Of a DNA stretch of 64,000 bases, positions 761-52,000 are shown in pieces (within the stretch, counting starts at the first letter, position 1; each line of letters opens with the position of its first letter). The stretch is taken from assembly GCA_964016885.1 (NCBI GenBank), contig OZ024765.1, positions 21,204,001 through 21,268,000 of the forward strand. The letters are read 5' to 3'. This DNA is from Eledone cirrhosa. Taxonomy: Eukaryota. The translations under genes were made by a program, and so were the position numbers. A model generated the notes under the pieces. That model was not told the origin of the DNA. It searched no databases and saw only the letters and a program-made list of their open reading frames with translations.

Positions 761-3700
761 CGTTTTCGGTATGCCTGACCGATTTAACTCACTCAATATG
801 CAAATTAGGCTGCTCAGCCGTTAATTTTCATAAGGAAAGTATATACTTTCGAACGTTCAACTATCTGGCAGATGGGTAAACGGTGCTGATGATAGCTAAC
901 AAGCTTGAAACTAGTACATCGTTCCTGTGTCAGTGTTGAACAAAAAGGTGACGTGGTTGCCTTAACACCGTATGGCATAAATTCAGGCTGTTCAGTTTGT
1001 TGACAAACGAACAAAGCGAGCGCTATAATAAGCGTCTGCTAAACTGATGCGTGCATATATGTATGTGTACCTGCATGTATGTATATATATATATATATAT
1101 ATATGCATGCTACTGTACGTCTGTATACATATATGTATGTACGTATACATACATACTTACATTTAAGTAAGTGCCATACTAAGAGTGAGAAATGAAATTT
1201 CGTTTTTCGTTTTCATTTTTTTCAACTTATCGTTTTCGGTATGCCTGACCGATTTAACTCACTCAATATGCAAATTAGGCTGCTCAGCCGTTAATTTTCA
1301 TAAGGAAAGTATATACTTTCGAACGTTCAACTATCTGGCAGATGGGTAAACGGTGCTGATGATAGCTAACAAGCTTGAAACTAGTACATCGTTCCTGTGT
1401 CAGTGTTGAACAAAAAGGTGACGTGGTTGCCTTAACACCGTATGGCATAAATTCAGGCTGTTCAGTTTGTTGACAAACGAACAAAGCGAGCGCTATAATA
1501 AGCGTCTGCTAAACTGATGCGTGCATATATGTATGTGTACCTGCATGTATGTATATATATATATATATATATATGCATGCTACTGTACGTCTGTATACAT
1601 ATATGTATGTACGTATACATACATACTTACATTTAAGTAAGTGCCATACTAAGAGTGAGAAATGAAATTTCGTTTTTCGTTTTCATTTTTTTTCAACTTA
1701 TCGTTTTCGGTATGCCTGACCGATTTAACTCACTCAATATGCAAATTAGGCTGCTCAGCCGTTAATTTTCATAAGGAAAGTATATACTTTCGAACGTTCA
1801 ACTATCTGGCAGATGGGTAAACGGTGCTGATGATAGCTAACAAGCTTGAAACTAGTACATCGTTCCTGTGTCAGTGTTGAACAAAAAGGTGACGTGGTTG
1901 CCTTAACACCGTATGGCATAAATTCAGGCTGTTCAGTTTGTTGACAAACGAACAAAGCGAGCGCTATAATAAGCGTCTGCTAAACTGATGCGTGCATATA
2001 TGTATGTGTACCTGCATGTATGTATATATATATATATATATATATGCATGCTACTGTACGTCTGTATACATATATGTATGTACGTATACATACATACTTA
2101 CATTTAAGTAAGTGCCATACTAAGAGTGAGAAATGAAATTTCGTTTTTCGTTTTCATTTTTTTTCAACTTATCGTTTTCGGTATGCCTGACCGATTTAAC
2201 TCACTCAATATGCAAATTAGGCTGCTCAGCCGTTAATTTTCATAAGGAAAGTATATACTTTCGAACGTTCAACTATCTGGCAGATGGGTAAACGGTGCTG
2301 ATGATAGCTAACAAGCTTGAAACTAGTACATCGTTCCTGTGTCAGTGTTGAACAAAAAGGTGACGTGGTTGCCTTAACACCGTATGGCATAAATTCAGGC
2401 TGTTCAGTTTGTTGACAAACGAACAAAGCGAGCGCTATAATAAGCGTCTGCTAAACTGATGCGTGCATATATGTATGTGTACCTGCATGTATGTATATAT
2501 ATATATATATATATATGCATGCTACTGTACGTCTGTATACATATATGTATGTACGTATACATACATACTTACATTTAAGTAAGTGCCATACTAAGAGTGA
2601 GAAATGAAATTTCGTTTTTCGTTTTCATTTTTTTTCAACTTATCGTTTTCGGTATGCCTGACCGATTTAACTCACTCAATATGCAAATTAGGCTGCTCAG
2701 CCGTTAATTTTCATAAGGAAAGTATATACTTTCGAACGTTCAACTATCTGGCAGATGGGTAAACGGTGCTGATGATAGCTAACAAGCTTGAAACTAGTAC
2801 ATCGTTCCTGTGTCAGTGTTGAACAAAAAGGTGACGTGGTTGCCTTAACACCGTATGGCATAAATTCAGGCTGTTCAGTTTGTTGACAAACGAACAAAGC
2901 GAGCGCTATAATAAGCGTCTGCTAAACTGATGCGTGCATATATGTATGTGTACCTGCATGTATGTATATATATATATATATATATATATGCATGCTACTG
3001 TACGTCTGTATACATATATGTATGTACGTATACATACATACTTACATTTAAGTAAGTGCCATACTAAGAGTGAGAAATGAAATTTCGTTTTTCGTTTTCA
3101 TTTTTTTTCAACTTATCGTTTTCGGTATGCCTGACCGATTTAACTCACTCAATATGCAAATTAGGCTGCTCAGCCGTTAATTTTCATAAGGAAAGTATAT
3201 ACTTTCGAACGTTCAACTATCTGGCAGATGGGTAAACGGTGCTGATGATAGCTAACAAGCTTGAAACTAGTACATCGTTCCTGTGTCAGTGTTGAACAAA
3301 AAGGTGACGTGGTTGCCTTAACACCGTATGGCATAAATTCAGGCTGTTCAGTTTGTTGACAAACGAACAAAGCGAGCGCTATAATAAGCGTCTGCTAAAC
3401 TGATGCGTGCATATATGTATGTGTACCTGCATGTATGTATATATATATATATATATATATGCATGCTACTGTACGTCTGTATACATATATGTATGTACGT
3501 ATACATACATACTTACATTTAAGTAAGTGCCATACTAAGAGTGAGAAATGAAATTTCGTTTTTCGTTTTCATTTTTTTTCAACTTATCGTTTTCGGTATG
3601 CCTGACCGATTTAACTCACTCAATATGCAAATTAGGCTGCTCAGCCGTTAATTTTCATAAGGAAAGTATATACTTTCGAACGTTCAACTATCTGGCAGAT

Positions 3701-6700
3701 GGGTAAACGGTGCTGATGATAGCTAACAAGCTTGAAACTAGTACATCGTTCCTGTGTCAGTGTTGAACAAAAAGGTGACGTGGTTGCCTTAACACCGTAT
3801 GGCATAAATTCAGGCTGTTCAGTTTGTTGACAAACGAACAAAGCGAGCGCTATAATAAGCGTCTGCTAAACTGATGCGTGCATATATGTATGTGTACCTG
3901 CATGTATGTATATATATATATATATATATATGCATGCTACTGTACGTCTGTATACATATATGTATGTACGTATACATACATACTTACATTTAAGTAAGTG
4001 CCATACTAAGAGTGAGAAATGAAATTTCGTTTTTCGTTTTCATTTTTTTTCAACTTATCGTTTTCGGTATGCCTGACCGATTTAACTCACTCAATATGCA
4101 AATTAGGCTGCTCAGCCGTTAATTTTCATAAGGAAAGTATATACTTTCGAACGTTCAACTATCTGGCAGATGGGTAAACGGTGCTGATGATAGCTAACAA
4201 GCTTGAAACTAGTACATCGTTCCTGTGTCAGTGTTGAACAAAAAGGTGACGTGGTTGCCTTAACACCGTATGGCATAAATTCAGGCTGTTCAGTTTGTTG
4301 ACAAACGAACAAAGCGAGCGCTATAATAAGCGTCTGCTAAACTGATGCGTGCATATATGTATGTGTACCTGCATGTATGTATATATATATATATATATAT
4401 ATGCATGCTACTGTACGTCTGTATACATATATGTATGTACGTATACATACATACTTACATTTAAGTAAGTGCCATACTAAGAGTGAGAAATGAAATTTCG
4501 TTTTTCGTTTTCATTTTTTTTCAACTTATCGTTTTCGGTATGCCTGACCGATTTAACTCACTCAATATGCAAATTAGGCTGCTCAGCCGTTAATTTTCAT
4601 AAGGAAAGTATATACTTTCGAACGTTCAACTATCTGGCAGATGGGTAAACGGTGCTGATGATAGCTAACAAGCTTGAAACTAGTACATCGTTCCTGTGTC
4701 AGTGTTGAACAAAAAGGTGACGTGGTTGCCTTAACACCGTATGGCATAAATTCAGGCTGTTCAGTTTGTTGACAAACGAACAAAGCGAGCGCTATAATAA
4801 GCGTCTGCTAAACTGATGCGTGCATATATGTATGTGTACCTGCATGTATGTATATATATATATATATATATATGCATGCTACTGTACGTCTGTATACATA
4901 TATGTATGTACGTATACATACATACTTACATTTAAGTAAGTGCCATACTAAGAGTGAGAAATGAAATTTCGTTTTTCGTTTTCATTTTTTTTCAACTTAT
5001 CGTTTTCGGTATGCCTGACCGATTTAACTCACTCAATATGCAAATTAGGCTGCTCAGCCGTTAATTTTCATAAGGAAAGTATATACTTTCGAACGTTCAA
5101 CTATCTGGCAGATGGGTAAACGGTGCTGATGATAGCTAACAAGCTTGAAACTAGTACATCGTTCCTGTGTCAGTGTTGAACAAAAAGGTGACGTGGTTGC
5201 CTTAACACCGTATGGCATAAATTCAGGCTGTTCAGTTTGTTGACAAACGAACAAAGCGAGCGCTATAATAAGCGTCTGCTAAACTGATGCGTGCATATAT
5301 GTATGTGTACCTGCATGTATGTATATATATATATATATATATATGCATGCTACTGTACGTCTGTATACATATATGTATGTACGTATACATACATACTTAC
5401 ATTTAAGTAAGTGCCATACTAAGAGTGAGAAATGAAATTTCGTTTTTCGTTTTCATTTTTTTTCAACTTATCGTTTTCGGTATGCCTGACCGATTTAACT
5501 CACTCAATATGCAAATTAGGCTGCTCAGCCGTTAATTTTCATAAGGAAAGTATATACTTTCGAACGTTCAACTATCTGGCAGATGGGTAAACGGTGCTGA
5601 TGATAGCTAACAAGCTTGAAACTAGTACATCGTTCCTGTGTCAGTGTTGAACAAAAAGGTGACGTGGTTGCCTTAACACCGTATGGCATAAATTCAGGCT
5701 GTTCAGTTTGTTGACAAACGAACAAAGCGAGCGCTATAATAAGCGTCTGCTAAACTGATGCGTGCATATATGTATGTGTACCTGCATGTATGTATATATA
5801 TATATATATATATATGCATGCTACTGTACGTCTGTATACATATATGTATGTACGTATACATACATACTTACATTTAAGTAAGTGCCATACTAAGAGTGAG
5901 AAATGAAATTTCGTTTTTCGTTTTCATTTTTTTTCAACTTATCGTTTTCGGTATGCCTGACCGATTTAACTCACTCAATATGCAAATTAGGCTGCTCAGC
6001 CGTTAATTTTCATAAGGAAAGTATATACTTTCGAACGTTCAACTATCTGGCAGATGGGTAAACGGTGCTGATGATAGCTAACAAGCTTGAAACTAGTACA
6101 TCGTTCCTGTGTCAGTGTTGAACAAAAAGGTGACGTGGTTGCCTTAACACCGTATGGCATAAATTCAGGCTGTTCAGTTTGTTGACAAACGAACAAAGCG
6201 AGCGCTATAATAAGCGTCTGCTAAACTGATGCGTGCATATATGTATGTGTACCTGCATGTATGTATATATATATATATATATATATGCATGCTACTGTAC
6301 GTCTGTATACATATATGTATGTACGTATACATACATACTTACATTTAAGTAAGTGCCATACTAAGAGTGAGAAATGAAATTTCGTTTTTCGTTTTCATTT
6401 TTTTTCAACTTATCGTTTTAGGTATGCCTGACCGATTTAACTCACTCAATATGCAAATTAGGCTGCTCAGCCGTTAATTTTCATAAGGAAAGTATATACT
6501 TTCGAACGTTCAACTATCTGGCAGATGGGTAAACGGTGCTGATGATAGCTAACAAGCTTGAAACTAGTACATCGTTCCTGTGTCAGTGTTGAACAAAAAG
6601 GTGACGTGGTTGCCTTAACACCGTATGGCATAAATTCAGGCTGTTCAGTTTGTTGACAAACGAACAAAGCGAGCGCTATAATAAGCGTCTGCTAAACTGA

Positions 6701-6815
6701 TGCGTGCATATATGTATGTGTACCTGCATGTATGTATATATATATATATATATATATGCATGCTACTGTACGTCTGTATACATATATGTATGTACGTATA
6801 CATACATACTTACAT
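524..6815 (+). mobile_element. Tandem array of 13 full ~471-bp hammerhead-containing units plus a partial unit (non-autonomous retrozyme-like / PLE-derived)
   Basis: The same 66-aa ORF recurs at 470-473 bp spacing; units differ mainly in TA/T-run lengths plus a SNP near 6420; each has an intact HHR; flanked by (TA)n on both sides. Confidence 0.85.
879..923 (+). ncRNA. Type I hammerhead ribozyme, first of 13 identical copies (last at 6532-6576)
   Basis: Stem I AACGGTG/CATCGTT; CTGATGA 886-892; stem II AGCT-aaca-AGCT; GAAA 907-910; minimal stem III in palindromic ACTAGT; predicted cleavage after GUA at 916. Confidence 0.85.
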
Positions 6816-8791: not shown

Positions 8792-11700
8792 AAATTTCTG
8801 TTTATTTGCCATGAGGGCACAAAAGAAAGGGACACATACATGGCGGGGGGGGGGGGGGGAGTTTACATAGAAATCAGTAAAAAAATGTAATAACAAATAA
8901 AATTATAACAAAAAGGTCCTCAATAGGGAGGGATCGTTTTGGGGTCACACAAACACACCCGAAAAAAAATGTGAGACCCTTCTCCGCGGGAGCACAGAGA
9001 GAGGGTGCTCGCTTCTTCATTCATCCTTTTCCACCTACAGGCTGAGGTAGAGAGAAGGCCCATTCACACGGGCCATTCTCGCAACTTTCACCGACCTTTC
9101 ATAAAACTGGCTGGGGTGGGGCACCTCTCTCTCCATCCTGATCCTTCTTCCGAAATGGTATCGGAAGAAAAGGACTAGTTGTTGGCCAGAAAGAAAGGTG
9201 TCCGACCTCAGCCCTTTTAGACGCGTCCACCATATAACCTCTTTTACCATGGCTATTACACAGAGGAAGACCGCCTCTCCTTGATTTTTGAAGGGGGGAG
9301 GCAACTTGATCGTTACAATGGCCTCGGTGGTCAACCTAATTGGTCCCACCCGTGACAGCAGTTGTTCGACATAACCCCACAGATCAGCAACGCCCGGGCA
9401 GTGTACCAATGCGTGCGCGACGGTTTCCTCGTCGCTCATGCATCTGGGACAGATCTTTTTCGAGGGGTCCCTACCCGGGCGCCCGTGTCTGTAGAGCTTA
9501 TCCTGAACAGGCAGAGCCCCTCGGTAGCACTGCCTGACCAAGGATTTCTGGAAGTTGTCCATAGGTCCCAGGCCGAAAGTCCTACCGAATAGGCTGGCCA
9601 GTTCGTCCTCCTCCATGCCTAGGGTTTCTCCGAGGGCGTCGTCGCACCTTCTAACCACCAGCCCTCTATAGAATGATGAGGTGGAGTCTCCACCAATAGC
9701 CAGGTCCACCTGTCTGAGAGCCGTGAGCGCCTGGGCACACTCGGTGTGCCAGTCGCCCAGTTTTCTCGGTCTTTGCTTCACCCAGGACTGCAGCTCGGTG
9801 AGTGAGATCAGCCTCGGGAAGGCTCGCCTCACAAACGGGGTCAACACCGGTTGACGGGTGAAGAATACCTGGAGGTGGCGTAGCCTCAATGCGTGTTTAC
9901 GCATTTTTAGCCACGGCATCCCCAGCCCTCCTTTCAAAGAGTGTTGACAGCAGATGGATCTCCTCACCAGAGGAGACCTCTTCTTCCAAATGAAGTGAAA
10001 GAGAGCGCGCTCCACTTTGGCGAGGATCTCACCCGGGCAAGGCATGACAGTCAAGCGGTAATAGATGACGGACGCTATGTAAGCGTTCGCCACCTCCACC
10101 CGACCTTTCAGGGATAGTTTGCACTCGGCCCACTTCTGGGTCCACCTGGAGGTCTGGTCCGAACCAGACCCCGAGCAACTTCACAGGGCCCTCCGTCCAG
10201 CGTCCGACGACGCCATCAGAGGGCATCGGTTTGCCCCTCCACGTGCCGAGTTGCAGCCCGATTGACTTGTCCCGGTTCAGCTTAGCCCCTGTAAACCTTT
10301 CGTACTCCTCCAGTAAGGTGCCGATCGCCCCGATTTCCGCGGTGGTCGACACCATTACTGTTACGTCATCGGCGTAGGCCGACACCGCTTTGCGCAATCC
10401 CGGTTCCAAAGGGATGCCCTGCAACAACTCCAACTTCCGCAGTAGTGGCTCTTGGTCACAGAACAGGGAATTCTCCCGTTCTGTTGCCAGTTGCAGTAGA
10501 CCGCCTCGAGGAGATCGGGGAACAAGTCCGGTATATTAATATATAGTTCGTAGGGCAGACCATCAAGTCCTGGAGATTTGCGTTTGCCGCATAGGCTTAG
10601 CACGTCCCCTATTTCAGCAGCTGAGATCGGCCTGTCGCAGGACCTTGCCTCCTTGTCCGAAAGACGCGGCAGGCCGTCGAGGTATGGACCGAAATCCACA
10701 TCTCCAACCGGCTCCCCGCCCCTCTCGAACAATTGGGCAAAGTGCCTTTGAAAGGCCTCGCACATTTGCTTAGGTTCAAGGATCACCCGTCCATCCTGGT
10801 CTCGCAAAGACCGGATAGTGGATCTAATCCCACGTTTGGCTTCTGTCACACGGGCCCAGCTAACAGCTTTGGTCCCCTCGTTTCCCAGAGCACGTATTTT
10901 GCTTCGGACAACGCAGCCTTCGTGTTTCGCGTCGAAGAACTGGCTCAAGGCCATTCACGACGCTTGCAGTCTGGCCACATTGCCGCTTCTCATTGCCTCT
11001 TCAACATTAACTACCAACTCCCTTTCCTTCCTATTTCTATCTGAGGCTAACTCCTTACTAACTCCTATTGAAACTACTCTAATCTCTCTTTTCAGAGAGC
11101 CCCACCACCTACTGTTGACGATGGCGCCCGTCAACCCCTCCTTAACTAAGGTTCTAATCCGGTCCCTGTAAGCTCTACTTGCCGGTAAGGACAAGTTGAG
11201 CTTGCAGTAACTGGGTCCCTGTCTATGCGTTCTATCAAGGTGGACTATGCAGGTCACTAACTTGTGGTCTGAATAGCCAACCATGAGCATTTCTGGACAA
11301 CTTAAAAAGTCCCTATCCTTAATTCTAACTAAGAACCTATCTAGGTACGATTTAGATTGACCACTGTGGTTTGTCCAAGTCCAGGTTGGCACAGTCGGAA
11401 AATCTAGTCGGTATCTATCGGCCAAGTCAAATCGGCCGATTAACCCCTTGAGGTTATTACAGCCCCCTCTATAGTCCCAATGTGCATCTAGGATACCATT
11501 CCAGTCCCCCACTAAAAGCAAGGAGCGGGACGTCCCTAGAAAAGTCTCCAGACGATGGAAGAAGTCTGACCGCATTGCCCCAAAAGGGGCGTAAACGGCG
11601 ACCAGCCTAAAAGCTTCGCCTTCACCACTGCCAAGGTCCAGAACCACTAGTTGACCCTCCAGGTCCAAGTGTACCGTCTGTGTAGCGAGACCCAGATGTT

Positions 11701-13862
11701 TTTGCAGTAGAACGACAACCCCACCCCCAGGGTGCATCTCAAAGTCCTCAAAGGTGGGGGCTAGTTGTCGCACGCTGCTGATCCGGGCCTCGCAAATAAC
11801 CATCACATTTATACATCGTGACCTGAGGTCATTTAGAAGTTTAGCTTGCTTCCAAGGTGAGCCCAGGCCACGTGCATTTAGACAACCTACTCTTAACACA
11901 GCCATGTTGGTGGTAAAGAAAGAGGCACTTACCTCTCTGCGTCCCGGGGTCCGGGCTGTTCAGTTTCCATGGGGGGGAGGAGTTGGGGGGGGGGTATTAG
12001 TGTGTGGTGGGGTTGGGGTATTTGGGGTTGTGTAGGTGTCTGAGGAGGGGGGTGGGTAACCTTTTAAGAGGACGTGGTTAAACGGTTTGTTACAGGGGGG
12101 GCCCCCACGTCCTCTTTATAAACGTTTTTTAAAGTTTGATAAAGGTTCATGGGGACCCCTTTATCATTTTGAGGTGTGGAGAGTCATCCACTGTCTTAAA
12201 ATTTGGCCCTTCGGTGCAAACCGAAGGGTTGCTGTTTATTATATTGAGCAGCTTTTTGTTTTGTTTGTTGATGTAAGTGTACTGTAATGTTTTTTTCTGT
12301 GACGCTGTTAGTGTTGTGTAATGGGGAGGGGTGCTTTGTGTTGTGTTGGTTTCTTCTGTGTTTGTTTGGTTTCTGTTAGTGGTATGTTTCCTTTTTTTCC
12401 TTTTTACTGGTCGGAACGGTTCTCCTTCATCTTCGCTATGCTCCGATGTAAGGTGTTCGTCCGTGTTCGGGGGTAGGGGGATATTTTGTGGTAGTGTTGT
12501 GTTGGTGTGTATATTTTTTATTGTTTTCTGTGTGGGGTGGGTGTGACTGATTTGTTTCGTGGTCTTTCGTTTTTGTTGTTGTTGTGGTGGTGGTGGAGGT
12601 AGTGTTGTTGGTTTTTGTTGTCGTTGTGGTGGTGGTGTATTTTGTTGCTTTTCTGGTGGTGGTGTTGGTTGTTTTTGTTGTTGTTGTGTTTTTGTTGTTG
12701 TTAGTAGAGGGCAGGCAGTCCTCAGGTGACCTCTGCCAGCTTAGTGGTAACATGAGGACCTCCTGCCTTCCACCATAATATTAATGAAAGTTCGACCATC
12801 CAGTAGTACTCAGTCGGGTATTCCGGCGATTCTCTCTGGTGTCATCTGTATGAGAATCTCCAGACTTCCCCCCCCCCCCCCCGAACAGTCCACTGGTGGA
12901 CTCACCTGCTGATATTAGAATGTCCTTTTCTAGGTCCGTGAATCCTGTCAGGACGGACCAGATGTCTACTTCTGGCGTTGAGCTCCACATTCTTAATCTT
13001 TGTGTTCTTCTTCCTTTATATGTGGGGAAGAAGGTGTATTGTGGTGACACTATAGGTGCCACCGAACATTTTCGAGCCAGCATTTGGTCCTTCATTCGGA
13101 CCATAATGCTGGCATAAAGCTTTCCTCTTTCAATAAAGAGTATGTCCTTTTTAATGTCTTTCAGAACCAGCTCAATTTGACTTTCTGTCAATTGAGCTGG
13201 TTTTCTTGTTGCGTTGGATATAGTCCTGAAAGTTATAGTATTCCTATATACCTGTTGACGAACTTCTTCTGGGGAGTTGATCGTAAAAGAACCATCCTCC
13301 CCAAAAGATACGTATTTTCTGGCATTTAGTAAGTTTTGCTTAGCGTTAGTAATGTCTATGGGTTTGTATTCGATCGTTTTTTTTACCGTTTGGGCAAAAT
13401 AAATTTTGCTGTTTTTGTTGTTTTCGTTTCGTTTATTGTTGTTGCAATGTTGTTGGTTTTATTAATTCCATTTTTTGTGGTATTTTTGTCCCTGTTAACT
13501 TTTTCAAAATTTGGGTTTTCACTCAAATTAACAGACTTTTTCACAGTGTTTTTTTCCATTCGAGAGGAGGGGTAGCTCAACAGTTTGAATTGTTGTTCCC
13601 TCTTTCTCGCTTTTTTGCTTTTTTTTTTTGGGTGGGCGTGGCGTTAGCTTGCAATATGACTTCCTCGTTTTTAACGATATCAATAAACATTTTAAATTAA
13701 AGATTTTCACCCCAAAAGGGGCGAAAATATATTTACCCTACGTCTACAGTCCCAGACGAGGGGTTAGAGTCAACAATAATAACAAAATTCAAATAACACA
13801 CTCACAAATAACAAAGTAGTAATCCAAAATCGAAGAGCCGATGTGAAAGACGTCCACTATCA
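8792..13862 (-). mobile_element. Near full-length, decayed Tx1/L1-clade non-LTR retrotransposon
   Basis: ORF2 pieces: APE endonuclease (10955-11905: LNARGL, GDWN, YLDRFL, SDH), RT N-part (KSPGLDGLPYELY), RT core (AYADDVTV), C-terminal CPRC...HALVHC; ORF1 remnant with a decayed gag-like knuckle (VEGRRSSCYH*..GHL near 12720-12780); AATAAA near the 3' end (8801-8806). Confidence 0.85.
9035..11905 (-). pseudogene. Disrupted ORF2 (EN-RT-Zn knuckle) of the Tx1/L1 element
   Basis: In-frame stop at 10955-10957, internal RT deletion near 10452 (…VTK|EPLLRKL…), frameshift near 10100-10140. Confidence 0.85.
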
Positions 13863-14244: not shown

Positions 14245-14800
14245 ATATAAGTATGTACACGTACATACATATATGTATACAGACGTACAGTAGTATGTAT
14301 ATATATATACATACATGCACACATATATATATGTACGTATGGATTCACCGAACATTTATTATAATGCTTGGTCTGTTTGTAAACAAACATCCCGTATTAA
14401 GCCGTAGTGTCTAGCAACCATCGTTGCTCGTTTGTTCAACACTGACAAAGCAAGGCTGTACTAGTTTCAAGCTTATTAGCTATCGTCAGCAACGTATACC
14501 TTCCTGCCAGATTGTTGAATGTATATACTTACCTTATGCATATTAACGGCTGAGTAGCCCAATTTGCATATCGAGTGGGTTAATACGGCTTAATACGGGA
14601 TGTTTGTTTACAAACACACCGAGCATTATAATAAATGTTCGGTGAATCCATACGTACATATATATATGTGTGCATGTATGTATATATATATATACATACT
14701 ACTGTACGTCTGTATACATATATGTATGTACGTGTACATACTTATATTTAAGTAACAGCCGTACTAAGAGTGGGAAATGAAATTTCGTTTCATTTTTTCC
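14245..14800 (-). mobile_element. Diverged monomer of the 471-bp family with an inverted partial copy
   Basis: Shares CAGTGTTGAACAAA, TACTGTACGTCTGTATAC, GAAATGAAATTTCGTTT blocks with the array; inversion junction near 14583. Confidence 0.8.
14455..14493 (-). ncRNA. Type I hammerhead (471-bp family)
   Basis: Minus strand: GTTG CTGACGA T AGCT aata AGCT T GAAA C TA G TA CAGC. Confidence 0.75.
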
Positions 14801-14845
<45 letters not shown>

Positions 14846-15995: not shown

Positions 15996-16908
15996 GATGT
16001 ATAAATTAATAACATTGTATATAAAGGATTAATTTATTTACTCAAGAGATGTATCTAATTTATCATGCAAACAGCTATACGTTATTCCATATCTTACCAA
16101 ATATTGGGTAGACAACAATCTAATGAAACCTTTAATATATTATGAGAGAGTAGACTGTATTTAAAATTAAATATAAATATATAACTTTTTATATAAGTGA
16201 TTCAATTGAGGCATTATATAATGTCTATTAGAGCAAGGAATTTAATTATTATAATGAGCTAGTTACCTCCCCTTACACATTAGCTCCCCTTAATTCCATA
16301 TCCACTTCTGGATATTAAACCATTGAAAATTCTCGCAGTTAAATAACTCTAATCCATAAATATGGATTAAATAACACCAAGTTACAATCCATTACTATAA
16401 CAAGCATTCAATACAGATATATCTTAACATATGTAATGGATGTGAATTCTGTAACTTCATATTCTACACTCATACAAATTTGAACTATACAGAAAATATC
16501 CTCGCATTGCATCCACCATAATACACTAACATATTCGCTTAAAGTGCTTGTATTTTATGTAATACCCTGCCATACAGTACTCATATATGCATAATACATT
16601 TGCTTGTTCCATTCCTTTATATATGACTAACGCATGTACTATCTCTCTAATTTAATTATTAGACTATTCTCTTGTATTATCTGTCGCATGTATTCCGCCC
16701 TATACTTTTAATTTTAATTTTAAATTTAAATTTAAATTTAAATTTTAATCTTAATTTGAATTATTGTACAATTCTCGTATAATATAATATATGTTGCATC
16801 CATTCCACCCTGTAAACATGAAACTGTTGTCCACAACATCAATATATATGTATCTGTATGATTCTTCAGTTGAAAAGGAGGTTAATTATATGTACAAACA
16901 TTGATAAT

Positions 16909-16953
16909 GCTCCGAGGACCCCAAGCCTAAGTTTGGAAGAAACAATTGTCAGT
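16909..16953 (+). ncRNA. Hammerhead-like motif with CCGAGGA core (probably decayed)
   Basis: GCT CCGAGGA ...CCAAGC/GTTTGG... GAAAC AATT GTC AGT; homologous to 18928-18976; downstream tail has an inverted copy at ~15590-15735. Confidence 0.5.
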
Positions 16954-17859
16954 GATTAAATGTTTTAAACATAACTTTGATACTTGTGTATTCTATATAT
17001 ATATATATATATATATAAGTATTGAAGTTTCCGTTGAAAATTGAAAAAGTCATAGGAGTGAATAGTGCTCTATGTAAGTTACAGAGCTAAATTTAATGTA
17101 TAATAAACAATACAATATAATTACCTCATTACCAGAGGTTTCCCGAATAAGACGATTTGAAAAATCTCCTCAAGAAAGGCAGAAGTTTAACGGGCAAAAA
17201 AAAAAATATATATATATATATATAAATAAAAGTAATGCAAGAGATATATAAAAAATAAGGAAATATAGTAACGGTATGTGTATAAATGTGTGTATATGCA
17301 CCTACAAATGTACATATGTGTGTATGTACAAATGCATGTGTATAGTGAAAAAATGTGTGCGTAAGTACATGAGGGCAAGCATATCAGTGTATGTGTGACC
17401 ACAAATACGCATATAATATATGTTGAAAAAAGAAATTGTAAGATAATAGAGTTAGCGTACATACAGACTCAGGGACTAAGGATTGAAATATATACACATA
17501 CAAGTATAAAAGCATGCGTATAAATACACACGCGCAACCACATACATGCATGTGATATATACAGGGAAGGGAGTGTGTCAGTCAAAGCAGTGTCAGGCTG
17601 AAGGTCGATACATATATAAAATTATAAAATATGAAAATGAAAAAATGATAAAATATATGAGAATAAAAAAATGTTATCAAAGAGAAAGTAAGATGGAGGG
17701 GTTATCAATTATAAAGTAACAATAGAAAAAAATAGAAAACATACAGAGGTTCATACACACACATATATATATATGTAAAAAACATAGATATAAAAACACA
17801 CATACACACACACATATACACATACACGCGCACATACGAATGCATTCGTATACATATAC

Positions 17860-18927: not shown

Positions 18928-18976
18928 TTGCTCCGAAGACTCCAAACCTCGGTTTGGACGAAACAATTGTAAGCAA
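18928..18976 (+). ncRNA. Type I hammerhead variant with CCGAAGA core
   Basis: TTGCT CCGAAGA C TCCAAACC tc GGTTTGGA C GAAA C AATT G TA AGCAA; all three stems present. Confidence 0.65.
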
Positions 18977-21856: not shown

Positions 21857-22618
21857 ATAGAAATATAAAATATACAGAAGCGAAAACCAATCCAAACCAA
21901 ACAGCTTGTTATATTATCATTTCTGGCAATATTATTACAATATAACCTTCACCAAATATGTTTCAACACAAGATTTCCTATCAAAAACCTTTGATATGAA
22001 ATCGTGGTTTAAGGGCAGCTCTAACAATATCTTCCAAGGTCTTTCTTGGTCTTCCACTCAGATTTGCTGGCATTTCTTCACCCATCGGGCGTTGTCCATA
22101 CCAACGCATTCTTCTCTCACACACCACCTCAGATTACCCTTAAAACCAGCTTCTCTCTCAGCTTATCCAACACACACACACAAATATATATATATATATA
22201 TATATATATGACTATCTTATACCATTAAGTTCACATGAAGTTATCTCACTATCTTAACACTAAATATATTTTATCTGACGAAAGCGTACTTAAATATTAG
22301 TACCCTTGTATGTATGATAAAATAAATATGGTTTTGTAATTATATTTTCCATTTATTAATACTGTTTATATTAATAATACTCCAGATAAACACTGTAGAG
22401 TGCTTCTAATCTGTTGTAAAATTAACTTTGTTGAATAATCAACAAAACAATATAACTCATTGTGTATATATATATATGTGTGTGTGTGTGCGTAACGAAG
22501 AAATTGTGGTAAGGAACCAGGTGGACCATAACGCACCAGAGTACTCAAATAGTCCAGAAATAGCCGTCGAAACGGCTTGAGCTCTGCCGTCGGGGTCATA
22601 CCTTTTCCTATATATATG

Positions 22619-22654: not shown

Positions 22655-23160
22655 AAAAATTAAACGAAATTTCATTTCCCACTCTTAGTACAGCTGTTAC
22701 TTAAATATAAGTATGTACACGTACATACATATATGTATACAGACGTACAGTAGTATGTATATATATATATACATACATGCACACATATATATATGTACGT
22801 ATGGATTCACCGAACATTTATTATAATGCTCGGTGTGTTTGTAAACAAACATCCCGTATTAAGCCGTAGTGTCTAGCAACCATCGTTGCAGGAAGGTATA
22901 CATTGCTGACGATAGCTAATAAGCTTAAAACTAGTACAGCGTTCCTTTGTCAGTGTTGAACAAACGAGCAACGATGGTTGCTAGACACTACGGCTTAATA
23001 CGGGATGTTTGTTTACAAACACACCGAGCATTATAATAAATGTTCGGTGAATCCATACGTACATATATATATATGTGTGCATGTATGTATATATATGTAT
23101 GCATACTACTGTACGTATGTATACATATATGTATGTACATGTACATACTTATGTATATAT
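22655..23160 (+). mobile_element. Another 471-bp-family copy with inverted arm; HHR at 22901-22941 carries GAAA>AAAA
   Basis: CATTG CTGACGA TAGCTAATAAGCTT AAAA CTAGTA CAGCG; arms invert near 22888. Confidence 0.75.
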
Positions 23161-27213: not shown

Positions 27214-27278
27214 TATTTTGTCTGATGAAAGCATACCATAATTTAACGTGGTGTCCTTGAAATATATATAATAGAATA
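27214..27278 (+). ncRNA. Type I hammerhead (TATTTTAT/ATAAAATA family); homologue at 45561-45626
   Basis: TATTTTGT CTGATGA AAG..ACCA..TGGT..CTT GAAA TATATA TA ATAGAATA. Confidence 0.6.
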
Positions 27279-27324: not shown

Positions 27325-27394
<70 letters not shown>

Positions 27395-27549
27395 TATTTT
27401 GAGTATATGTTGGTTGTTTACTGACACCTCACTATGCAGATCGGAGCACACGACGAAGTATGCAGGTTGGTTGGTTTACTCCGGAGTAATGTAAAATAAT
27501 TAAGTCAAATATGTAAAATTTGGCTTCGTTTATTATAGATTATAGATAT

Positions 27550-27604
27550 ACTGCTATATATATTTCGGTGACAGCCATCATTGGCTGTGACCTCTTCAGG
27601 CAGT
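27550..27604 (-). ncRNA. Type I hammerhead (left arm)
   Basis: Reverse complement of 27820-27874. Confidence 0.8.
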
Positions 27605-27819
27605 CCGAATTGGTGTGGGAAAGACATGTACACATGTTGTTGAAGTGTGTTTTACTCCGTCAATCCATCGATATGTCCAGCTCCTGGTTGTGAGGAACTG
27701 GAATCATATGAATCCAGTTCCTCAGAGGAATAACAACCAGGAGCTTGACATATCGATGTATTGACGGAGTAAAACACACTTCAACAACATGTGTACCTGT
27801 CTTTCCCACACCAGTTCGG

Positions 27820-27874
27820 ACTGCCTGAAGAGGTCACAGCCAATGATGGCTGTCACCGAAATATATATAGCAGT
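27820..27874 (+). ncRNA. Type I hammerhead (right arm)
   Basis: ACTGC CTGAAGA GGT c ACAGCCA atga TGGCTGT c ACC GAAA TATATA TA GCAGT; canonical G-C closing pair of stem II. Confidence 0.8.
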
Positions 27875-28176
27875 ATATCTATAATCTATAATAAACGAAG
27901 CCAAATTTTACATATTTGACTTAATTATTTTACATTACTCCGGAGTAAACAAACCAACCTGCGTACTTCGTCGTGTGCTCCGATCTGCATAGTGAGGTGT
28001 CGGTAAACAACCAACATATACTCAATATATATATACATATATACCAATGATATTAATAAATGGAAACTATATTTATAAAACCATATTTATTCTATTATAT
28101 ATATTTCAAGGGTACCAGACTTTGGTACGCTACGCTTCAATTTTTTCCTGGATAGGATATAAATATCCCTTTTGCT

Positions 28177-29020: not shown

Positions 29021-29065
29021 GCTCTGATGATTCCTGCCCAACGGTATGGATGAAACATTGTCAGC
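29021..29065 (+). ncRNA. Type I hammerhead, GUC site
   Basis: GCT CTGATGA T TCC..GGA T GAAA C att G TC AGC; stem I extendable by TTTATT/AATAAA. Confidence 0.75.
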
Positions 29066-29229: not shown

Positions 29230-29275
29230 GTCTTAACGTTTTGGACGCTAGTCCTTCATCAGAAGAAATAATGAG
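29230..29275 (-). ncRNA. Decayed hammerhead (GAAA>AAAA)
   Basis: Minus strand: TCTT CTGATGA A GGAC tagc GTCC AAAA CG TT AAGA. Confidence 0.45.
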
Positions 29276-29475: not shown

Positions 29476-29518
29476 ACAGTCCTGATGAAAGATAATGACC
29501 CAGAAACATGTTGATTGT
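29476..29518 (+). ncRNA. Hammerhead-like motif in a distant relative of the 471-bp unit
   Basis: ACAGTC CTGATGA ... GAAA C AT G TT GATTGT; flanks CTGGCAGA and CAGTGTTGAACAAA match the array unit; stem II is poor. Confidence 0.55.
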
Positions 29519-29784
29519 TCCTCAAAGCCAGTGTTGAACAAACAAGTGACGATCGGTCACCGTCACATCTTCAAATTCGGCCTTTTGTTTACAAACGAAT
29601 CGAACATTATTATTACTGTTCGATATAACCCATATGTACATATGTATATATGTGTATAATGTATATATATGTGTGTACGTGTGCATACTTACGTATATAT
29701 ATATATATATATATATACGTTATTCCGGGTTGAATCGGAGGTAACCACAGTAAGTAAGGTACTCAATACATAGCAGAGTATAAA

Positions 29785-29913
29785 AGTTTTAATATAGATG
29801 AGATTCTACAGGACTAGAACTGTTTCATTCATTAGAAATCATCAGGAATCTGATTCCTGATGATTTCTAATGAATGAAACAGTTCTAGTCCTGTAGAATC
29901 TCATCTATATTAA

Positions 29914-29917
<4 letters not shown>
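29785..29917. ncRNA. Perfect palindrome of two back-to-back hammerheads (29802-29850 minus; 29852-29900 plus)
   Basis: GATTC CTGATGA T TTC taat GAA T GAAA CAG ttctagtc CTG TA GAATC; 1-nt spacer at 29851. Confidence 0.8.
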
Positions 29918-29947
<30 letters not shown>

Positions 29948-29952
<5 letters not shown>

Positions 29953-30091
29953 TATTTTATAGAAGGAGCTTCTACAGGACTAGTACTGTTTCATTCAGAT
30001 GAAATCTTCAGGAAGCTCAAGAGCTTCCTGAAGATTTCATCTGAATGAAACAGTACTAGTCCTGTAGAAGCTCCTTCTATAAAATAAAAAA
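29948..30091. ncRNA. Second palindrome of back-to-back hammerheads (29966-30018 minus; 30021-30073 plus)
   Basis: GAGCTTC CTGAAGA T TTC atct GAA T GAAA CAG tactagtc CTG TA GAAGCTC; 2-nt spacer. Confidence 0.8.
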
Positions 30092-30271
30092 ATTTTACTC
30101 TGCCATGTATTGAGTACCTTACTTACTGTGGTTATCCCCGACTCAACCCGGGACCTACGTATATATATCTATATATATATATATATCTATATATATATAT
30201 ATATATATATATACTATGACAAATAATGATAATAATAATAATAAATATCTCTATATTTCTATTTTTGTCAG

Positions 30272-44844: not shown

Positions 44845-45195
44845 TATATATAATATATAAGATCAAAAGATGGTTAAAGGAGTTCCATGTATTTTATTAT
44901 GCGCATTTCAAAAACAAATATCATCATGCAATAATATTTGTGTTTTCATCAGATAAAATAGGAAGACATGATATGAAGGTTAAAAAACACTTGTGAATAG
45001 TGCAGTTTTAAATCAACATATCACTATGCACAAGTGCACTCACTATTCACAAGTGTTTTTTAACCTTCATATCATGTCTTCCTATTTTATCTGATGAAAA
45101 CACAAATGTTATTGCATGATGATATTTGTTTTTGAAATGCGCATAATAAAATACATGGAACTCTTTTAACCATCTTTTGTTCTTATATATTATAT
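44845..45195. mobile_element. Palindromic element with HHRs at 44890-44960 (-) and 45083-45153 (+)
   Basis: TATTTTAT CTGATGA AAACACAAAT..ATTTGTTTTT GAAA TGCGCA TA ATAAAATA; apex near 45020. Confidence 0.8.
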
Positions 45196-45560
45196 ATACT
45201 CCAGTCCTACAAACTGTAGAGTGCTTCTTATCCGATATCTGCATTGCTTTATTGTACTACAATAAAACTCACCTCCTACATTATATATATATATATATAT
45301 GTGTGTGTATACATATATATATATATGAAAATATGTGTGTGTATATATATATAGAAATGGTGTGTATATATATATATTTCTATCTCTGTTCAGGTCGTTA
45401 TGAGTATGTGTATATATATATATATACACATACTCATAATGACTTGAACAGATAATAGACTAAATAAATGTAGTAACCCCACTATCCGGGAGCTTCCAAC
45501 AGAAATGGTTGCATTCTTTAAGGGTATGTCAATATTTATTTATAAAACTGATCTATATTA

Positions 45561-45626
45561 TATTTTATCTGATGAAAGCGCACCATAATTTGACTTGGTT
45601 GCCCTTGAAATATATGTAATAAAATA
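45561..45626 (+). ncRNA. Type I hammerhead, homologue of 27214-27278
   Basis: TATTTTAT CTGATGA AAG...CTT GAAA TATATG TA ATAAAATA. Confidence 0.6.
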
Positions 45627-45730: not shown

Positions 45731-45942
45731 ATTAGAAAATATATAGCTTTCACCGTATTTTTAACTAAAGGAATTTTAGCTTGATAACGGGGTTTAGAAC
45801 CCTCAGATAAATGGAAAAAGATGAGTATTTACGTACATACGTCAATACTCATCTTTTTCCATTTATCTGAGGGTTCTAAACCCCGTTATCAAGCTAAAAT
45901 TCCTTTAGTTAAAAATACGGTGAAAGCTATATATTTTCTAAT
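45731..45942. repeat. ~100-bp-arm perfect palindrome
   Basis: ATTAGAAAATATATAGCTTTCACCG... inverted around ~45836. Confidence 0.9.
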
Positions 45943-46030: not shown

Positions 46031-48261
46031 ATGACGAAAAAGAAGATGATTTAGAGACATATGACATAGATAATAACTGGAATTTCTTACATGACAACTT
46101 ACTGCAGGCTACTGATGAAACTTGTGGCTGGAGCAGAGCTCCAACCAGACAGAGAGTGACCTGGTGGTGGAACAGCACAGTAGATAAGGCTATTAGAGAC
46201 AAAAGACTAGCATGGAAGGCTTGGAAAAAGGGTGGGAGTAGAGAAGGATATACAGCCGCTAAGAGAGAAGCTAGACGTCAGGTGTACTTAGCACACAGGG
46301 AGGCTGAGAGTAGGAGGTTTGCCAATGTTCTGTGACAGGAAGATCAGAGACGTGCGGTGTTCCACATTGCAAGGCAGTGTGTCAATGCAAATGGATGTTG
46401 TTGGAGATAAATGTGTCTGGAATGATGCTGGTGTACTTAGTGTCACGAATGATCAGAAAAAGGAGGCCTGGAAATGTCATTATGAAAGACTGATGAATGT
46501 GGAGAACGAATGGGAGAGAGAGAAATTACCCTTAGTAGCTCCGACAGAGGGACCAGCTATTGAGATTGACGAATATAGGGTCCAAGAGGCGATTAAGGAA
46601 ATGAAAAATGGTAAGGCTGCAGGACCATCGGGGATAGTTGCTGAGATGCTGAAGGCATCAGGGGACGTAGGCACTAAACTGGTTGCACGCATCATCAATC
46701 AGGTTATATATGGTGGTGTCATACCCAAAGACTGGTGCAGCAGTATTCTCATAAATTGCTACAAAGGTAAAGGGGATGCTCTGGAGAGGAGCAAGTATAG
46801 AGGTATAAAACTGATGGATCAAGTTATGAAAGTGGCAGAAAGGATATTAGCACAACTAATTAGAGAAAGGGTCAAACTAGATGAGATGCAGTTAGGTTTT
46901 GTGCCTGGAAAGAATACAACAGATGCCATCTTTTTGGTGAGACAATTACAAGAGAGGTTCTTAGAGGAAAATAAGCCACTATACTTAGCCTTTGTTGACC
47001 TAGAGAAGGCATTTGATAGGGTAGCCCGATCTGTCATCTGGTGTTCCCTAAGGAAACTAGGTGTTGAGGAATGGCTTGTGAGGACAGTGCAAACTTTGTA
47101 CAGAGGTACTGTCAGTAAAGTCAGGGTAGGAATGGAGTTTCGTGAGAAATTCCAGATACAAGTAGGAGTACATCAAGGTTCGGTCCTCGGCCCGCTCTTG
47201 TTCATTATAGTCCTCCAAGCCATATCAGAGGAGTTTAAGACTGGCGGTCCATGGGAACTTCTCTATGCTGATGATCTGGTTCTTATAGCAGAATCAGTAG
47301 AGGAGCTAGAGAATAAATTCTGGCTATGGAAACAGCCGTTGGAAGCAAGAGGACTGAGAGTGAATCTAGCTAAGACAAAAGTGTTGATGAGTAGAAAAGA
47401 GGACAAAACTCTGATTCCGTCAGGGAAATGGCCATGTTCGATATGCAGGAAAGGAACTGGCATAAATTCTATAAAATGCACACAATGCAGATCCTGGGTA
47501 CACAAGAGATGTAGCGGGATAGCAGGCAAACTAACAGGTAGGGAGAAATATGTATGCAGTAGATGTACAGGGAAATTAGACAGTAGAAGTCGCATTGATA
47601 GACACATTTTTCAAATGCAGGCGGGTGCTGTAGAAGTGGTGGATAGCTTCCGGTACCAAGGAGATCAGATTAGCATGGGAGGGGGGTGTCCAGAGGCCAT
47701 AGTATCTAGAATAAGGATGGGTTGGAAGAAGTTTAGGGAGCTGCTTCCTCTGCTGATGAAGAAGGGTTTCTCCCTGCGTATGAAAGGCCGGTTATATGAT
47801 GCCTGTGTGAGGAGCGCAATGCTGCATGGTAGTGAGACATGGGCAGCAACTGCAGAGGATATGCGACGGCTGGAGAGAAATGAGGCAAGCATGCTCCGTT
47901 GGATGTGCAATGTCAATGTGCGTGAACGACCCAGCATGAATGTGTTGAGAGAGAAACTGTGTCTGAGTGGGATAGAATGTAGTGTACGGGAGAGGAGACT
48001 GCGGTGGTATGGACATGTGATGCGCATGGAGGATGACCGATGGGTGAAGAAGTGCCAGGAAATGCCAGTTGAAGGAAGACGTGGTAGAGGTAGACCACGA
48101 AAAATATGGGCGGAGGTGGTGAGAACAGACCTCAGATCATTGAAGCTCACGGTGGAGATGACGAAGGACCGTGACGAGTGGAGAGATGCTGTGCTGAATA
48201 AGACCCGTCCCACCCTTGCAAGCAGGGAAGAGCGGACGTAAAATGATGATGATGATGATGA
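46031..48261 (+). mobile_element. 5'-truncated RTE-clade LINE (second subfamily)
   Basis: RT ORF to 48241 with [21 protein letters not shown] and a Cys/His finger; stop/frameshift near 46330-46390; (GAT)n tail. Confidence 0.95.
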
Positions 48262-48572: not shown

Positions 48573-48616
48573 GTAAGACAGTTGATACATCACATCCTTT
48601 TCCTTTACTCTTTCGC

Positions 48617-49055
48617 TAACCCGAACCTTAACTCCTAAGTCTAATCCTAACTAACCCTTAACCATGACCCTAATCTTAACTCTAACCCTAAATCTAACCA
48701 TAACCCCTAACCATGACTCTAACTCTAACCCTAACTGTAACCTTATCCCTAACCCTAAAACTCCAACCTTAACCCTAACCCTTAACCTTAACCCTAGCCA
48801 TAATCCATAAATCTAACCCTTAAGTTTAAACACTAAACTTAACCCAAACCCCTAACCCTAACCCTAATCCTTAACCCTAACCTAAACTCTAACAGTAAAC
48901 CCTAACCATAACCCTAACCCTAACCCCAACTCTAACCATAACCCTAACGATAACCCTTAACCTTAACCCTAGCCTTAACCCTAGCCTTAACCCTAACCTA
49001 AACTCTAACACTAAACCCTAACCATAACCCTTAACTCTAACCTTAAACCAAACCC
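48617..49055. repeat. Degenerate (TAACCC)n telomere-like tract, intronic
   Basis: CCCTAA / CTCTAA / CCTTAA variants. Confidence 0.85.
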
Positions 49056-49461: not shown

Positions 49462-49557
49462 TGTAATAAACAACATAAGACAATTATTCCATTTACCAAA
49501 GGTTTCACGAAGACAGACGCTAAATGGAATAATTGTCTTATGTTGTTTATTACATAA
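49458..49557. repeat. ~38-bp-arm hairpin
   Basis: TTATGTAATAAACAACATAAGACAATTATTCCATTTA ... TAAATGGAATAATTGTCTTATGTTGTTTATTACATAA. Confidence 0.85.
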
Positions 49558-50551: not shown

Positions 50552-50647
50552 AACCAAACGTTAAACAGGTTCATTGATTAATCAATGAATATAGTTTTAC
50601 AATAGATTAGAAGCACTCAACAGTGAAGTTTTCTGGAGTTATTAATA

Positions 50648-50975
50648 TTAGTTCAAAATATTAATAAATATAGACATTCATGTGATCAAATATATTTTAT
50701 TATATATATTTCAGAGGTACTGTGCTGTTTCCTCAGTACGTCCTCATCAGATAAAATAAATTGATGTCTGACAAACCTGAACTGTGCTGATGGTTCAATT
50801 CCAGTCTTGGCAGTGATTGGAATTGAACCACCAGCACAGTTGAGGTATGTCAGACATCAATTTATTTTATCTGATGAGGACGTACTGAGGAGACAGCACA
50901 GTACCTCTGAAATATATATAATAAAATATATTTGATCACATGAATGTCTATATTTATTAATATTTTGAATTAATA
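50648..50975. mobile_element. Palindromic element with HHRs at 50693-50758 (-) and 50863-50928 (+)
   Basis: TATTTTAT CTGATGA G GA.GTACTG..CAGTAC.TC T GAAA TATATA TA ATAAAATA; apex near 50810. Confidence 0.8.
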
Positions 50976-51664
50976 TATATATATATATATATGGTGGCTG
51001 CCAACTCGTTTTCGAGTACGGCCACTACTTTATATCCATGTAGGAGAACTCCTACCAATGCGCTGAACGTGTGTGACTTTTTAGTCCAGTCAGCGACTTG
51101 AAAACTCTGGTACAAACACTACACCTGTGACAATTATTGACACATAGTGCTGGGCCCATGGTACCATGTGACGACAAGTACAGAGAGATCTCCAGATATA
51201 AAGCAATGCCTGTGCCGTGAAGCTTTTATAGTGAGCAAAGGCACTGCACAAAGCCAGTCCCACTCTCTTAACCAAGATGATATTTACCAAAAAGAAGAAC
51301 AAGTCAACATCATTGGATACCGTCAGGGTTGCAGGTGTTATATCAGAGTTTTCCTTCTCCTAGAATTCTGCCTTGACAAAGGCTAAGGGGTCATCTCTCC
51401 CGGTGATTTTGGATGGCCATTGACTCTTAAGAGCTCCTTTGCCCTTTGACAGGTTTTGTTTTTAGTCCTGCAGGATGTTCAAAGTCACCCTCCTCACCAA
51501 GAAACCTTGGTGGGGTTGCCAGTTTAGTCGCCAACGACCTGACCATGAGACATATATATATATATATATATATAATGTAGGAGGTGAGTTTTATTGTAGT
51601 ACAATAAAGCAATGCAGATATCGGATAAGAAGCACTCTACAGTTTGTAGGACTGGAGTATACAT

Positions 51665-52000
51665 AATATATAAGATCAAAAGATGGTTAAAGGAGTTCCA
51701 TGTATTTTATTATGTGCATTTCAAAAACAAACATCATCATGCAATAATATTTATGTTTTCATCAGATAAAACAGGAGAACATGATATGAAGGCAAAAAAA
51801 AACACTTGTGGATAGTGCAGTTGTTGATTTAAAACTGCACTATCCACAAGTGTTTTTTTTTGTTTTTTTTGCCTTCATATCATGTTCTCCTGTTTTATCT
51901 GATGAAAACACAAATATTATTGCATGATGATGTTTGTTTTTGAAATGCGCATAATAAAATACATGGAACTCCTTTAACCATCTTTTGATCTTATATATTA
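51665..52000. mobile_element. Palindromic element (same family as 44845-45195) with HHRs at 51703-51773 (-) and 51891-51961 (+)
   Basis: TGTTTTAT CTGATGA AAACACAAAT..TTTGTTTTT GAAA TGCGCA TA ATAAAATA; apex near 51825. Confidence 0.8.

What the first reader, a model, noticed from the sequence alone, without database searches (positions are those of the whole stretch)
879..51961. About 20 further hammerheads of several families share palindromic loop-3 sequences, pointing to dimeric cleavage
Seen: stem III is tiny but self-complementary in different families: ACTAGT (array, 14.4k), ACAATTGT (16.9k, 18.9k), ATATATAT (27.2k, 27.8k, 50.9k), ATGCGCAT (45.1k, 51.9k), AACATGTT (29.5k), AACGTT (29.2k). 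Known: HHRs with unstable stem III (newt, avocado sunblotch viroid, PLE minimal HHRs) cleave as double hammerheads. Inference: only tandem or abundant transcripts would cut, so isolated intronic copies are mostly harmless, explaining the high density.
Basis: partly seen in the sequence, partly recalled or inferred. Interest (0 to 1): 0.75.

Follow-up and report, generated by a model that had tools for sequence, protein, structure and literature searches.

The report
Dimer-type hammerheads in Penelope-like repeats
This stretch of an animal genome holds about 35 copies of small self-cutting-RNA motifs, likely left by several jumping-gene families; their mirror-image third stem is real and fits the published idea that such motifs cut in pairs, while most scattered copies are damaged or predicted to be locked inside long hairpins.

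Summary
A descriptor that asks for no pairing inside helix III finds 30 type I hammerheads (13 in a 471-bp array, 17 outside, one likely false) against 0.45 per shuffle; 23 of 30 have an exact palindrome there, against 1 of 23 chance matches. Loop positions that cannot pair within one molecule covary in two families. Corrections: about six families, not one per palindrome; the 29.2k and 29.5k motifs are broken and mis-delimited; four motifs have a long, monomer-stable helix III.

The dimer reading is published for Penelope-like-element (PLE) hammerheads (PMC4209133, PMC3088659), and these insertions have PLE-type ends, though no PLE ORF was linked.

The inference 'isolated, so harmless' is not supported: compatible same-strand partners lie 2 to 7 kb apart. 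Instead, 12 of 16 scattered motifs sit in head-to-head foldbacks whose antisense arm is transcribed first and is predicted to lock them, and 7 more are damaged. No cleavage or expression data. The scan noted the same thing on another piece of this genome (e1-8664523). Verdict: new members of a known kind.

The parts
304..519 (-). Inverted, 5'-truncated arm of the family A array; no hammerhead; carries the extra end segment ('tail', about 65-70 nt) and ends in (TA)n
519..6815 (+). Tandem array, 13.4 x 471 bp, 99% identical; one family A hammerhead per unit (core starts 886 ... 6539; predicted cut after 916 ... 6569; helix III ACTAGT; U.U at the base of stem II)
14455..14493 (-). Family A hammerhead, intact core, helix III ACTAGT; in a two-armed insertion (about 14245-14801) whose other arm has the tail and no hammerhead
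16908..16954 (+). Family B hammerhead, damaged (C at U4, two mismatches at the base of stem II), helix III ACAATTGT
18928..18976 (+). Family B hammerhead (C at U4), helix III ACAATTGT; not in a foldback that covers it
22267..22325 (+). Family C1 hammerhead, broken (GAAA segment partly deleted)
22903..22939 (+). Family A hammerhead with A at G12, in the loop of a two-armed insertion (about 22651-23150)
27214..27278 (+). Family C1 hammerhead, intact, helix III ATATATAT; free (no antisense arm over the core)
27381..28043 (.). Family D head-to-head foldback (311-nt arms); hammerheads at 27599 (-) and 27825 (+), helix III ATATATAT; both predicted fully paired with the antisense arm
28081..28137 (-). 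Family C1 fragment, truncated before the core
29021..29065 (+). Family B relative; helix III one base short (ACATTGT), stem I 3 bp
29231..29266 (-). Family F minimal hammerhead, helix III ACGT, A at G12
29476..29518 (+). Family A relative; helix III ACATGT, stem I with two-sided changes against the array, stem II does not fold
29716..30159 (.). Two family E foldbacks; hammerheads at 29845 (-), 29857 (+), 30011 (-), 30028 (+); 16-nt near-palindromic helix III with a 4-bp stem; tail on one arm of each
44859..45282 (.). Family C3 foldback; hammerheads at 44952 (-) and 45091 (+), helix III ATGCGCAT; tail on the + arm
45561..45626 (+). Family C1 hammerhead, helix III ATATATGT (one G.U); free
50555..50968 (.). 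Family C2 foldback; hammerheads at 50750 (-) and 50871 (+), helix III ATATATAT; tail on the - arm
51575..51992 (.). Family C3 foldback; hammerheads at 51765 (-, ATGCACAT) and 51899 (+, ATGCGCAT); tail on the - arm
53296..53453 (+). Host exon (ZP/VERL_C-like protein) with AG/GT ends; an internal exon, so DNA upstream of it is likely intron
63401..63534 (+). Next exon of the same host gene

Best explanation
The window carries type I hammerhead motifs of about six repeat families with a palindromic helix III, likely non-coding derivatives of Penelope-like elements (PLEs), whose ribozymes are predicted to cut best as double hammerheads in tandem transcripts, while most scattered copies are damaged or predicted to be locked in long hairpins. 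Shown: the motifs, the palindromes above chance, covariation of loop positions, two-armed insertions in (TA)n with a tail on one arm. Inferred: (1) in a tandem transcript two neighbouring motifs swap stem I partners and pair their palindromes into a 6-8 bp helix III, releasing unit-length RNA; (2) a PLE reverse transcriptase/endonuclease copies such RNA into microsatellites, giving a main arm and an inverted 5'-truncated arm; (3) where both arms reach the hammerhead, read-through from either side makes the antisense arm first, so the motif emerges into a ready duplex and cannot fold; (4) the other copies decay. Host tolerance then rests on locking, decay and low intrinsic activity more than on lack of a partner.
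For: 30 hits against 0.45 in shuffles. 23 of 30 exact palindromes; 1 of 23 in chance matches. In family C the two innermost helix III pairs, which cannot form in one molecule, change on both sides between subfamilies; family A has a second such swap. A two-unit array transcript puts the double hammerhead 3.4 kcal/mol above the free ensemble, and two monomers with A15.1-U16.1 closed 19.8-21.3 above it. A one-sided tail is seen in 8 of 9 two-armed insertions of families A, C, D and E, matching PLE anatomy in Craig et al.. All 12 foldback motifs have core unpaired probability 0.00 with 330 nt upstream, against 0.50-0.74 for 5 free ones. Family A is a high-copy repeat: 5239 contigs laid in run X1. 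Published model.
Against: No cleavage or expression data. No PLE ORF could be tied to any family. The covariation is one event per family, and the families may share ancestry. Family E has a monomer-stable helix III, and the double fold gains 8.7 kcal/mol there too, so the gain does not discriminate. The array dimer's lowest-energy fold is a mispaired form, not the double hammerhead. Invertebrate motifs with 2 bp plus tetraloop are reported to cut as monomers. Tails here (about 55-90 nt) are longer than the 30-40 bp, and family D shows none. 8 of 9 Xenopus dimer elements did not cut in vitro.
Confidence: 0.72

Rival explanations
1. The 8-nt families (B, C, D) and family E cut usefully as monomers; the palindrome is an inherited or optional feature and only families A and F need a partner.
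For: 2-bp stem plus tetraloop is the invertebrate type reported to cut as a monomer. Family B's active monomer fold is only 0.8 kcal/mol above its free fold, D's 2.7. Family E's helix III hairpin is stable.
Against: C and D close helix III with A-U and U-A only (+3.6 kcal/mol). Loop positions covary in C, which a monomer fold does not explain.
Confidence: 0.25
2. One reading: the dimer requirement alone silences scattered intronic copies, and this explains the density.
For: Monomers of family A are strongly disfavoured. A single S. mansoni minimal motif showed no cleavage. The two free family C motifs are 18 kb apart.
Against: Compatible same-strand partners lie 2.0-6.8 kb apart. 12 of 16 intact scattered motifs are foldback-paired and 7 more are damaged. 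Xenopus retrozymes are depleted in introns. Intron status is unproven for most of the window.
Confidence: 0.15
3. The palindromes are a by-product of (TA)n-rich, foldback-prone DNA and carry no RNA function.
For: 26% of A..T 8-mers in the window are palindromes when (TA)n runs are included; two families use ATATATAT.
Against: Four palindromes are not TA repeats. Even the lenient background gives p about 0.006 for four families. The palindromes sit exactly between GAA and the cut site, with fixed length, and the feature is published for PLE hammerheads of other animals.
Confidence: 0.04

Closest known systems
[quoted passage not shown] 2017, seen only as a title in reference lists and through review PMC6765202)
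   Same: Type I topology, short palindromic helix III, many families per genome, mostly dispersed single motifs, pairs 100-700 bp apart on opposite strands, proposed dimer cleavage.
   Different: No PLE ORF linked in this window. Family C has an 8-bp AU-rich stem I and a long bulged stem II; family B has C at U4; family E has a 4-bp helix III. The parts read do not discuss locking by the inverted arm.
Animal non-LTR retrozymes (PMC7229834, passages; Li et al. 2026, 10.64898/2026.07.22.740005, parts 1-3 of 5; review PMC7761336, passages)
   Same: Non-coding tandem units with one type I hammerhead each; the axolotl Amex1 motif has 1 bp plus a palindromic tetraloop and cuts better as a dimer, like family A; proposed PLE origin.
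   Different: Unit of 471 bp (above the 170-400 nt of the 2020 paper, within the 51-972 bp of the 2026 preprint); inverted arm with tail; circular RNA not tested; cephalopods do not occur in the 2020 text (0 hits).
PLE insertion anatomy (Craig et al. 2021, 10.1101/2021.04.23.441226, passages; PMC8969392, passages)
   Same: 5' truncation, inverted 5'-truncated copy, tail on one end, insertion in microsatellites.
   Different: Tails about 55-90 nt rather than 30-40 bp; family D without a visible tail.
Newt and avocado sunblotch viroid double hammerheads (Forster et al. 1988; not read, cited in PMC4209133 and PMC3088659)
   Same: Unstable helix III replaced by pairing of two palindromes with stem I exchange.
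   Different: Those were shown by experiment; here only predicted.

Membership tests
Type I hammerhead ribozyme | Core CUGANGA / GAAA / UH around three helices, stem I open | tested here: met
   29 credible descriptor hits of 30, against 0.45 in shuffles; one (18933) has C at U4, a variant that lowers activity
Type I hammerhead ribozyme | Match to an Rfam hammerhead model | tested here: not met
   0 matches at gathering scores; no hammerhead family among the 150 of 525 rows shown at E up to 1
Type I hammerhead ribozyme | Self-cleavage after H17 | not testable with these tools
   No assay; no RNA holder listed
Dimer-type (double) hammerhead | Short, unstable helix III with palindromic sequence | tested here: met
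   Families A, B, C, D, F; not family E
Dimer-type (double) hammerhead | Covariation of loop positions that only pair between two molecules | tested here: met
   family C, two innermost pairs, one event; family A, one event in a damaged copy
Dimer-type (double) hammerhead | Faster cleavage as dimer than as monomer | not testable with these tools
   Only folding energies
Penelope-like element derivative | Inverted 5'-truncated arm and one-sided tail | tested here: met
   8 of 9 two-armed insertions; tail longer than published
Penelope-like element derivative | Insertion in microsatellites | tested here: met
   Arm ends run into (TA)n or (TG)n; no enrichment test against background
Penelope-like element derivative | Homology to a pLTR or an RT/GIY-YIG ORF | tested here: inconclusive
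   No GIY-YIG among 79 ORFs scanned or 6 read-through frames; the one phmmer hit was a repeated PAS protein; no genome held
Non-LTR retrozyme (471-bp array) | Two or more tandem units each with a type I hammerhead, no ORF | tested here: met
   13 units; the array's own short ORFs were not scanned
Non-LTR retrozyme (471-bp array) | Expressed as linear and circular unit-length RNA | not testable with these tools
   No RNA holder listed

The most novel reading that the evidence does not exclude
The head-to-head insertion geometry of PLE-type repeats is a built-in off switch: it locks each ribozyme in a duplex from either direction of transcription, which lets an octopod genome carry a hammerhead every few kilobases. 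The free copies left over can pair across subfamilies kilobases apart in one pre-mRNA (shared stem I plus compatible palindrome) and cut host introns as long-range double hammerheads.
Probability: 0.15. Interest if true: 0.6.

Novelty: new member of a known kind. Interest (0 to 1): 0.25.

Why it matters
The palindrome and the dimer idea are published, so the finding as written adds new family members from an octopod-type genome, not a new principle. Two things are usable. First, natural loop swaps at positions that cannot pair within one molecule give ready-made specificity tests of the double-hammerhead model, whose role in vivo the reviews call unresolved. Second, foldback locking offers a different, testable reason why a genome can tolerate this density of self-cleaving motifs.

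Tried and rejected
Whole-genome descriptor search: no genome held. Rfam: nothing at gathering scores; the E-value scan was swamped by microRNA-model hits on TA repeats and hairpins.

Expression: no RNA holder listed. Contig pile-ups on family A in run X1 showed common variants only at N7, loop II and the outer stem I, none in the core or loop III. A stem I change known from window copies (position 919) was not listed, so sensitivity is patchy and I do not count this as evidence.

PLE ORF upstream of the 16.9k motif: looks GIY-YIG-like by eye (recalled motif, no call), but Pfam found nothing and the single phmmer hit was a sensor kinase with repeated PAS domains; rejected as support.

Family-C pattern in metagenome and viral contigs: 43 loci, 23 distinct, 9 with no stem II fold at all. 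I treated them as chance and used them as a control; I did not check their origin.

Hit 24448 rejected as chance (lowest score, no family). Candidates at 41175 (-), 20484, 14.96k, 48.5k and 50.38k failed the final descriptor and were dropped (the last three by eye). The 79-bp array was first noted as a donor-site repeat and withdrawn, as it starts in a LINE-like 3' end (by eye).

Lunse et al. 2017 is not held; one search returned an unrelated paper. Supplements were not read for any paper; Fig. S8 of PMC3088659 and the supplements of PMC4209133 may list mollusc motifs. Searches for an octopus hammerhead paper and for inverted-pLTR hairpin locking listed none by title or abstract start; this does not show that none exists.
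Full report
Setting. The window is 38% GC, rich in (TA)n and tandem arrays, with LINE-type RT and endonuclease ORFs. An exon at 53296-53453 is 73% identical to a protein that its source names as from Argonauta hians, so an octopod genome is likely. No whole genome was held, so all counts are for this window.

The motifs. A type I descriptor that places no demand on pairing between A15.1 and U16.1 gave 30 hits on both strands: 13 in the 471-bp array at 519-6815 and 17 outside it. Forty block-wise dinucleotide shuffles gave a mean of 0.45 and at most 2; the reversed and the complemented window gave 1 each. Hit 24448 has the lowest score and no relative, and I drop it, leaving 16. nhmmer with window seeds, alignment and inspection added 7 damaged copies. 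'About 20 further hammerheads' is therefore right. They fall into about six families. A: the array, 14489, 22906, 29482. B: 16912, 18933, 29024. C: subfamilies C1 (22275, 27222, 28.1k fragment, 45569), C2 (50750, 50871) and C3 (44952, 45091, 51765, 51899), united by stem I and the 3' segment. D: 27599, 27825. E: four motifs at 29.8-30.1k. F: 29262. Rfam models do not reach their thresholds on any of them.

The palindromes. 23 of 30 hits are exact palindromes from A15.1 to U16.1. Outside the array 10 of 16 are exact, 2 are one base off and 4 (family E) have a 16-nt near-palindrome. Background rates outside (TA)n runs are 10.6% for 6-mers and 3.5% for 8-mers; with the runs, 35% and 26%. For families A-D the product is 5e-6 on the strict background, 1e-4 counting only the tetraloops and 0.006 on the lenient one. 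The same pattern matched 43 loci in public metagenome and viral contigs, 23 distinct, which I treat as chance; 1 of 23 is palindromic against 5 of 7 in the window. These tests assume independent families, which common ancestry weakens. More telling, the two innermost pairs of the family C palindrome cannot form within one molecule, yet both change on both sides between C1/C2 and C3. Family A shows a similar swap in a damaged copy whose stem I has also changed on both sides. Each is a single event.

Monomer or dimer. As hairpins the short helices cost +1.3 (B) to +4.9 (A) kcal/mol, while self-duplexes of the exact 6-8-mers gain 3.2-10.5; family E's hairpin is stable at -2.5. In a two-unit array transcript the double hammerhead lies 3.4 kcal/mol above the free ensemble and two closed monomers about 20 above it, but the lowest-energy fold is a mispaired dimer. 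For 8 of 8 isolated motifs tested the double form gains 7-16 kcal/mol over two monomers; family E gains too, so this test does not discriminate. Published work points both ways. A single S. mansoni minimal motif did not cut, and dimers cut weakly. Axolotl motifs cut better as dimers, while invertebrate motifs with 2 bp plus tetraloop cut as monomers. Eight of 9 Xenopus dimer elements did not cut. Dimer dependence is most likely for A and F, plausible for C and D, open for B and unlikely for E.

What the elements are. The motifs sit in short non-coding insertions inside (TA)n or (TG)n. Nine insertions of families A, C, D and E have two arms head to head (3 A, 3 C, 2 E, 1 D). In 8 of the 9, one arm stops at a family-specific site and the other runs on by a tail of about 55-90 nt. 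A family B foldback at 18.5k, whose inverted arm stops far short of the 3' end, was left out of this count. Inverted 5'-truncated copies, a one-sided tail and microsatellite targets are the anatomy described for PLEs, though the published tail is 30-40 bp. The array meets the sequence definition of a non-LTR retrozyme, a class proposed to derive from PLE ends. Family A is a high-copy repeat in run X1 and is present in runs of four organism labels. I could not link any family to a PLE ORF, so PLE origin is inferred from anatomy.

Why the host tolerates them. On sequence alone partners exist: 16912/18933 (2.0 kb), 45569/50871 (5.3 kb), 45091/51899 (6.8 kb) and 27222/45569 (18 kb) can exchange stem I and pair all 8 helix III positions. 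What stands out instead is geometry. Twelve of the 16 intact scattered motifs lie in six foldbacks in which both arms contain the motif and point away from each other. A polymerase coming from either side makes the antisense arm first. With 330 nt of upstream sequence the core is unpaired with probability 0.00 in all 12, against 0.50-0.74 in the 5 free motifs tested, and the duplex is already complete in transcripts ending 10 nt past the cut site. Seven more copies are damaged. That leaves four free, near-intact scattered motifs (14489, 18933, 27222, 45569). These are equilibrium predictions, and a promoter inside a foldback would escape them. Intron status is likely only for 44.9-52.0k, which lies upstream of an internal ZP/VERL_C-like exon and downstream of a possible Thr-rich exon at about 36265-37609 (untested). 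In Xenopus, retrozymes are depleted in introns, which argues against full harmlessness.

Novelty. The palindromic helix III, the dimer model, the many families per genome and even close pairs on opposite strands are in Cervera and de la Pena 2014, and the palindrome is noted in Perreault et al. 2011. I found no paper on octopus hammerheads or on locking by the inverted arm in two searches, which is weak evidence. Earlier notes of this scan report the same palindrome finding and the same two-armed anatomy elsewhere in this genome; I had noted the one-sided tail before seeing them. Verdict: real, new members of a known kind, with the ecological inference replaced by a likelier one. Interest 0.25.

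Noticed in passing
window 53819-63443: The 83-bp x 116 tandem array is a repeat of the 3' splice site and first part of the host exon at 63401-63534, so over a hundred look-alike acceptors precede the real exon.
   Followed up: partly
window 36265-37609 (+): Possible Thr-rich mucin-like exon with an AG acceptor and at least one frameshift; may belong to the ZP/VERL_C-like gene.
   Followed up: partly
window 13970-14229 and 22494-22608: A further two-armed repeat family; the 22.5k copy has a GUC directly before GAAA in a hairpin and no intact CUGANGA. It may be a decayed copy of the scrambled-order hammerhead family noted by earlier agents.
   Followed up: partly
window 16000-16320 (+): Degenerate frame upstream of the family B motif that resembles a GIY-YIG C-terminus by eye; searches gave no support.
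   Followed up: yes
window 30272-30290 (+): Candidate 19-nt microexon with AG and GTAAGT ends; untested.
   Followed up: no
window 18486-18662, 23404-24601, 25780-27047, 45735-45938, 49468-49548: More foldback insertions without a descriptor hit in their arms.
   Followed up: no
window 9035-13458 (-), 38373-40250 (-), 46292-48241 (+), 21088-21645 (+): A broken LINE with endonuclease and zf-RVT, two RT ORFs with a PHD finger, and an ORF without a Pfam hit between short inverted ends, DNA-transposon-like by eye.
   Followed up: partly
window 51055-51225 (-): Isolated C2H2 zinc finger ORF; host exon or repeat remnant not decided.
   Followed up: no
window 48616-49055: Degenerate interstitial (CTAACC)n telomere-like tract.
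   Followed up: no
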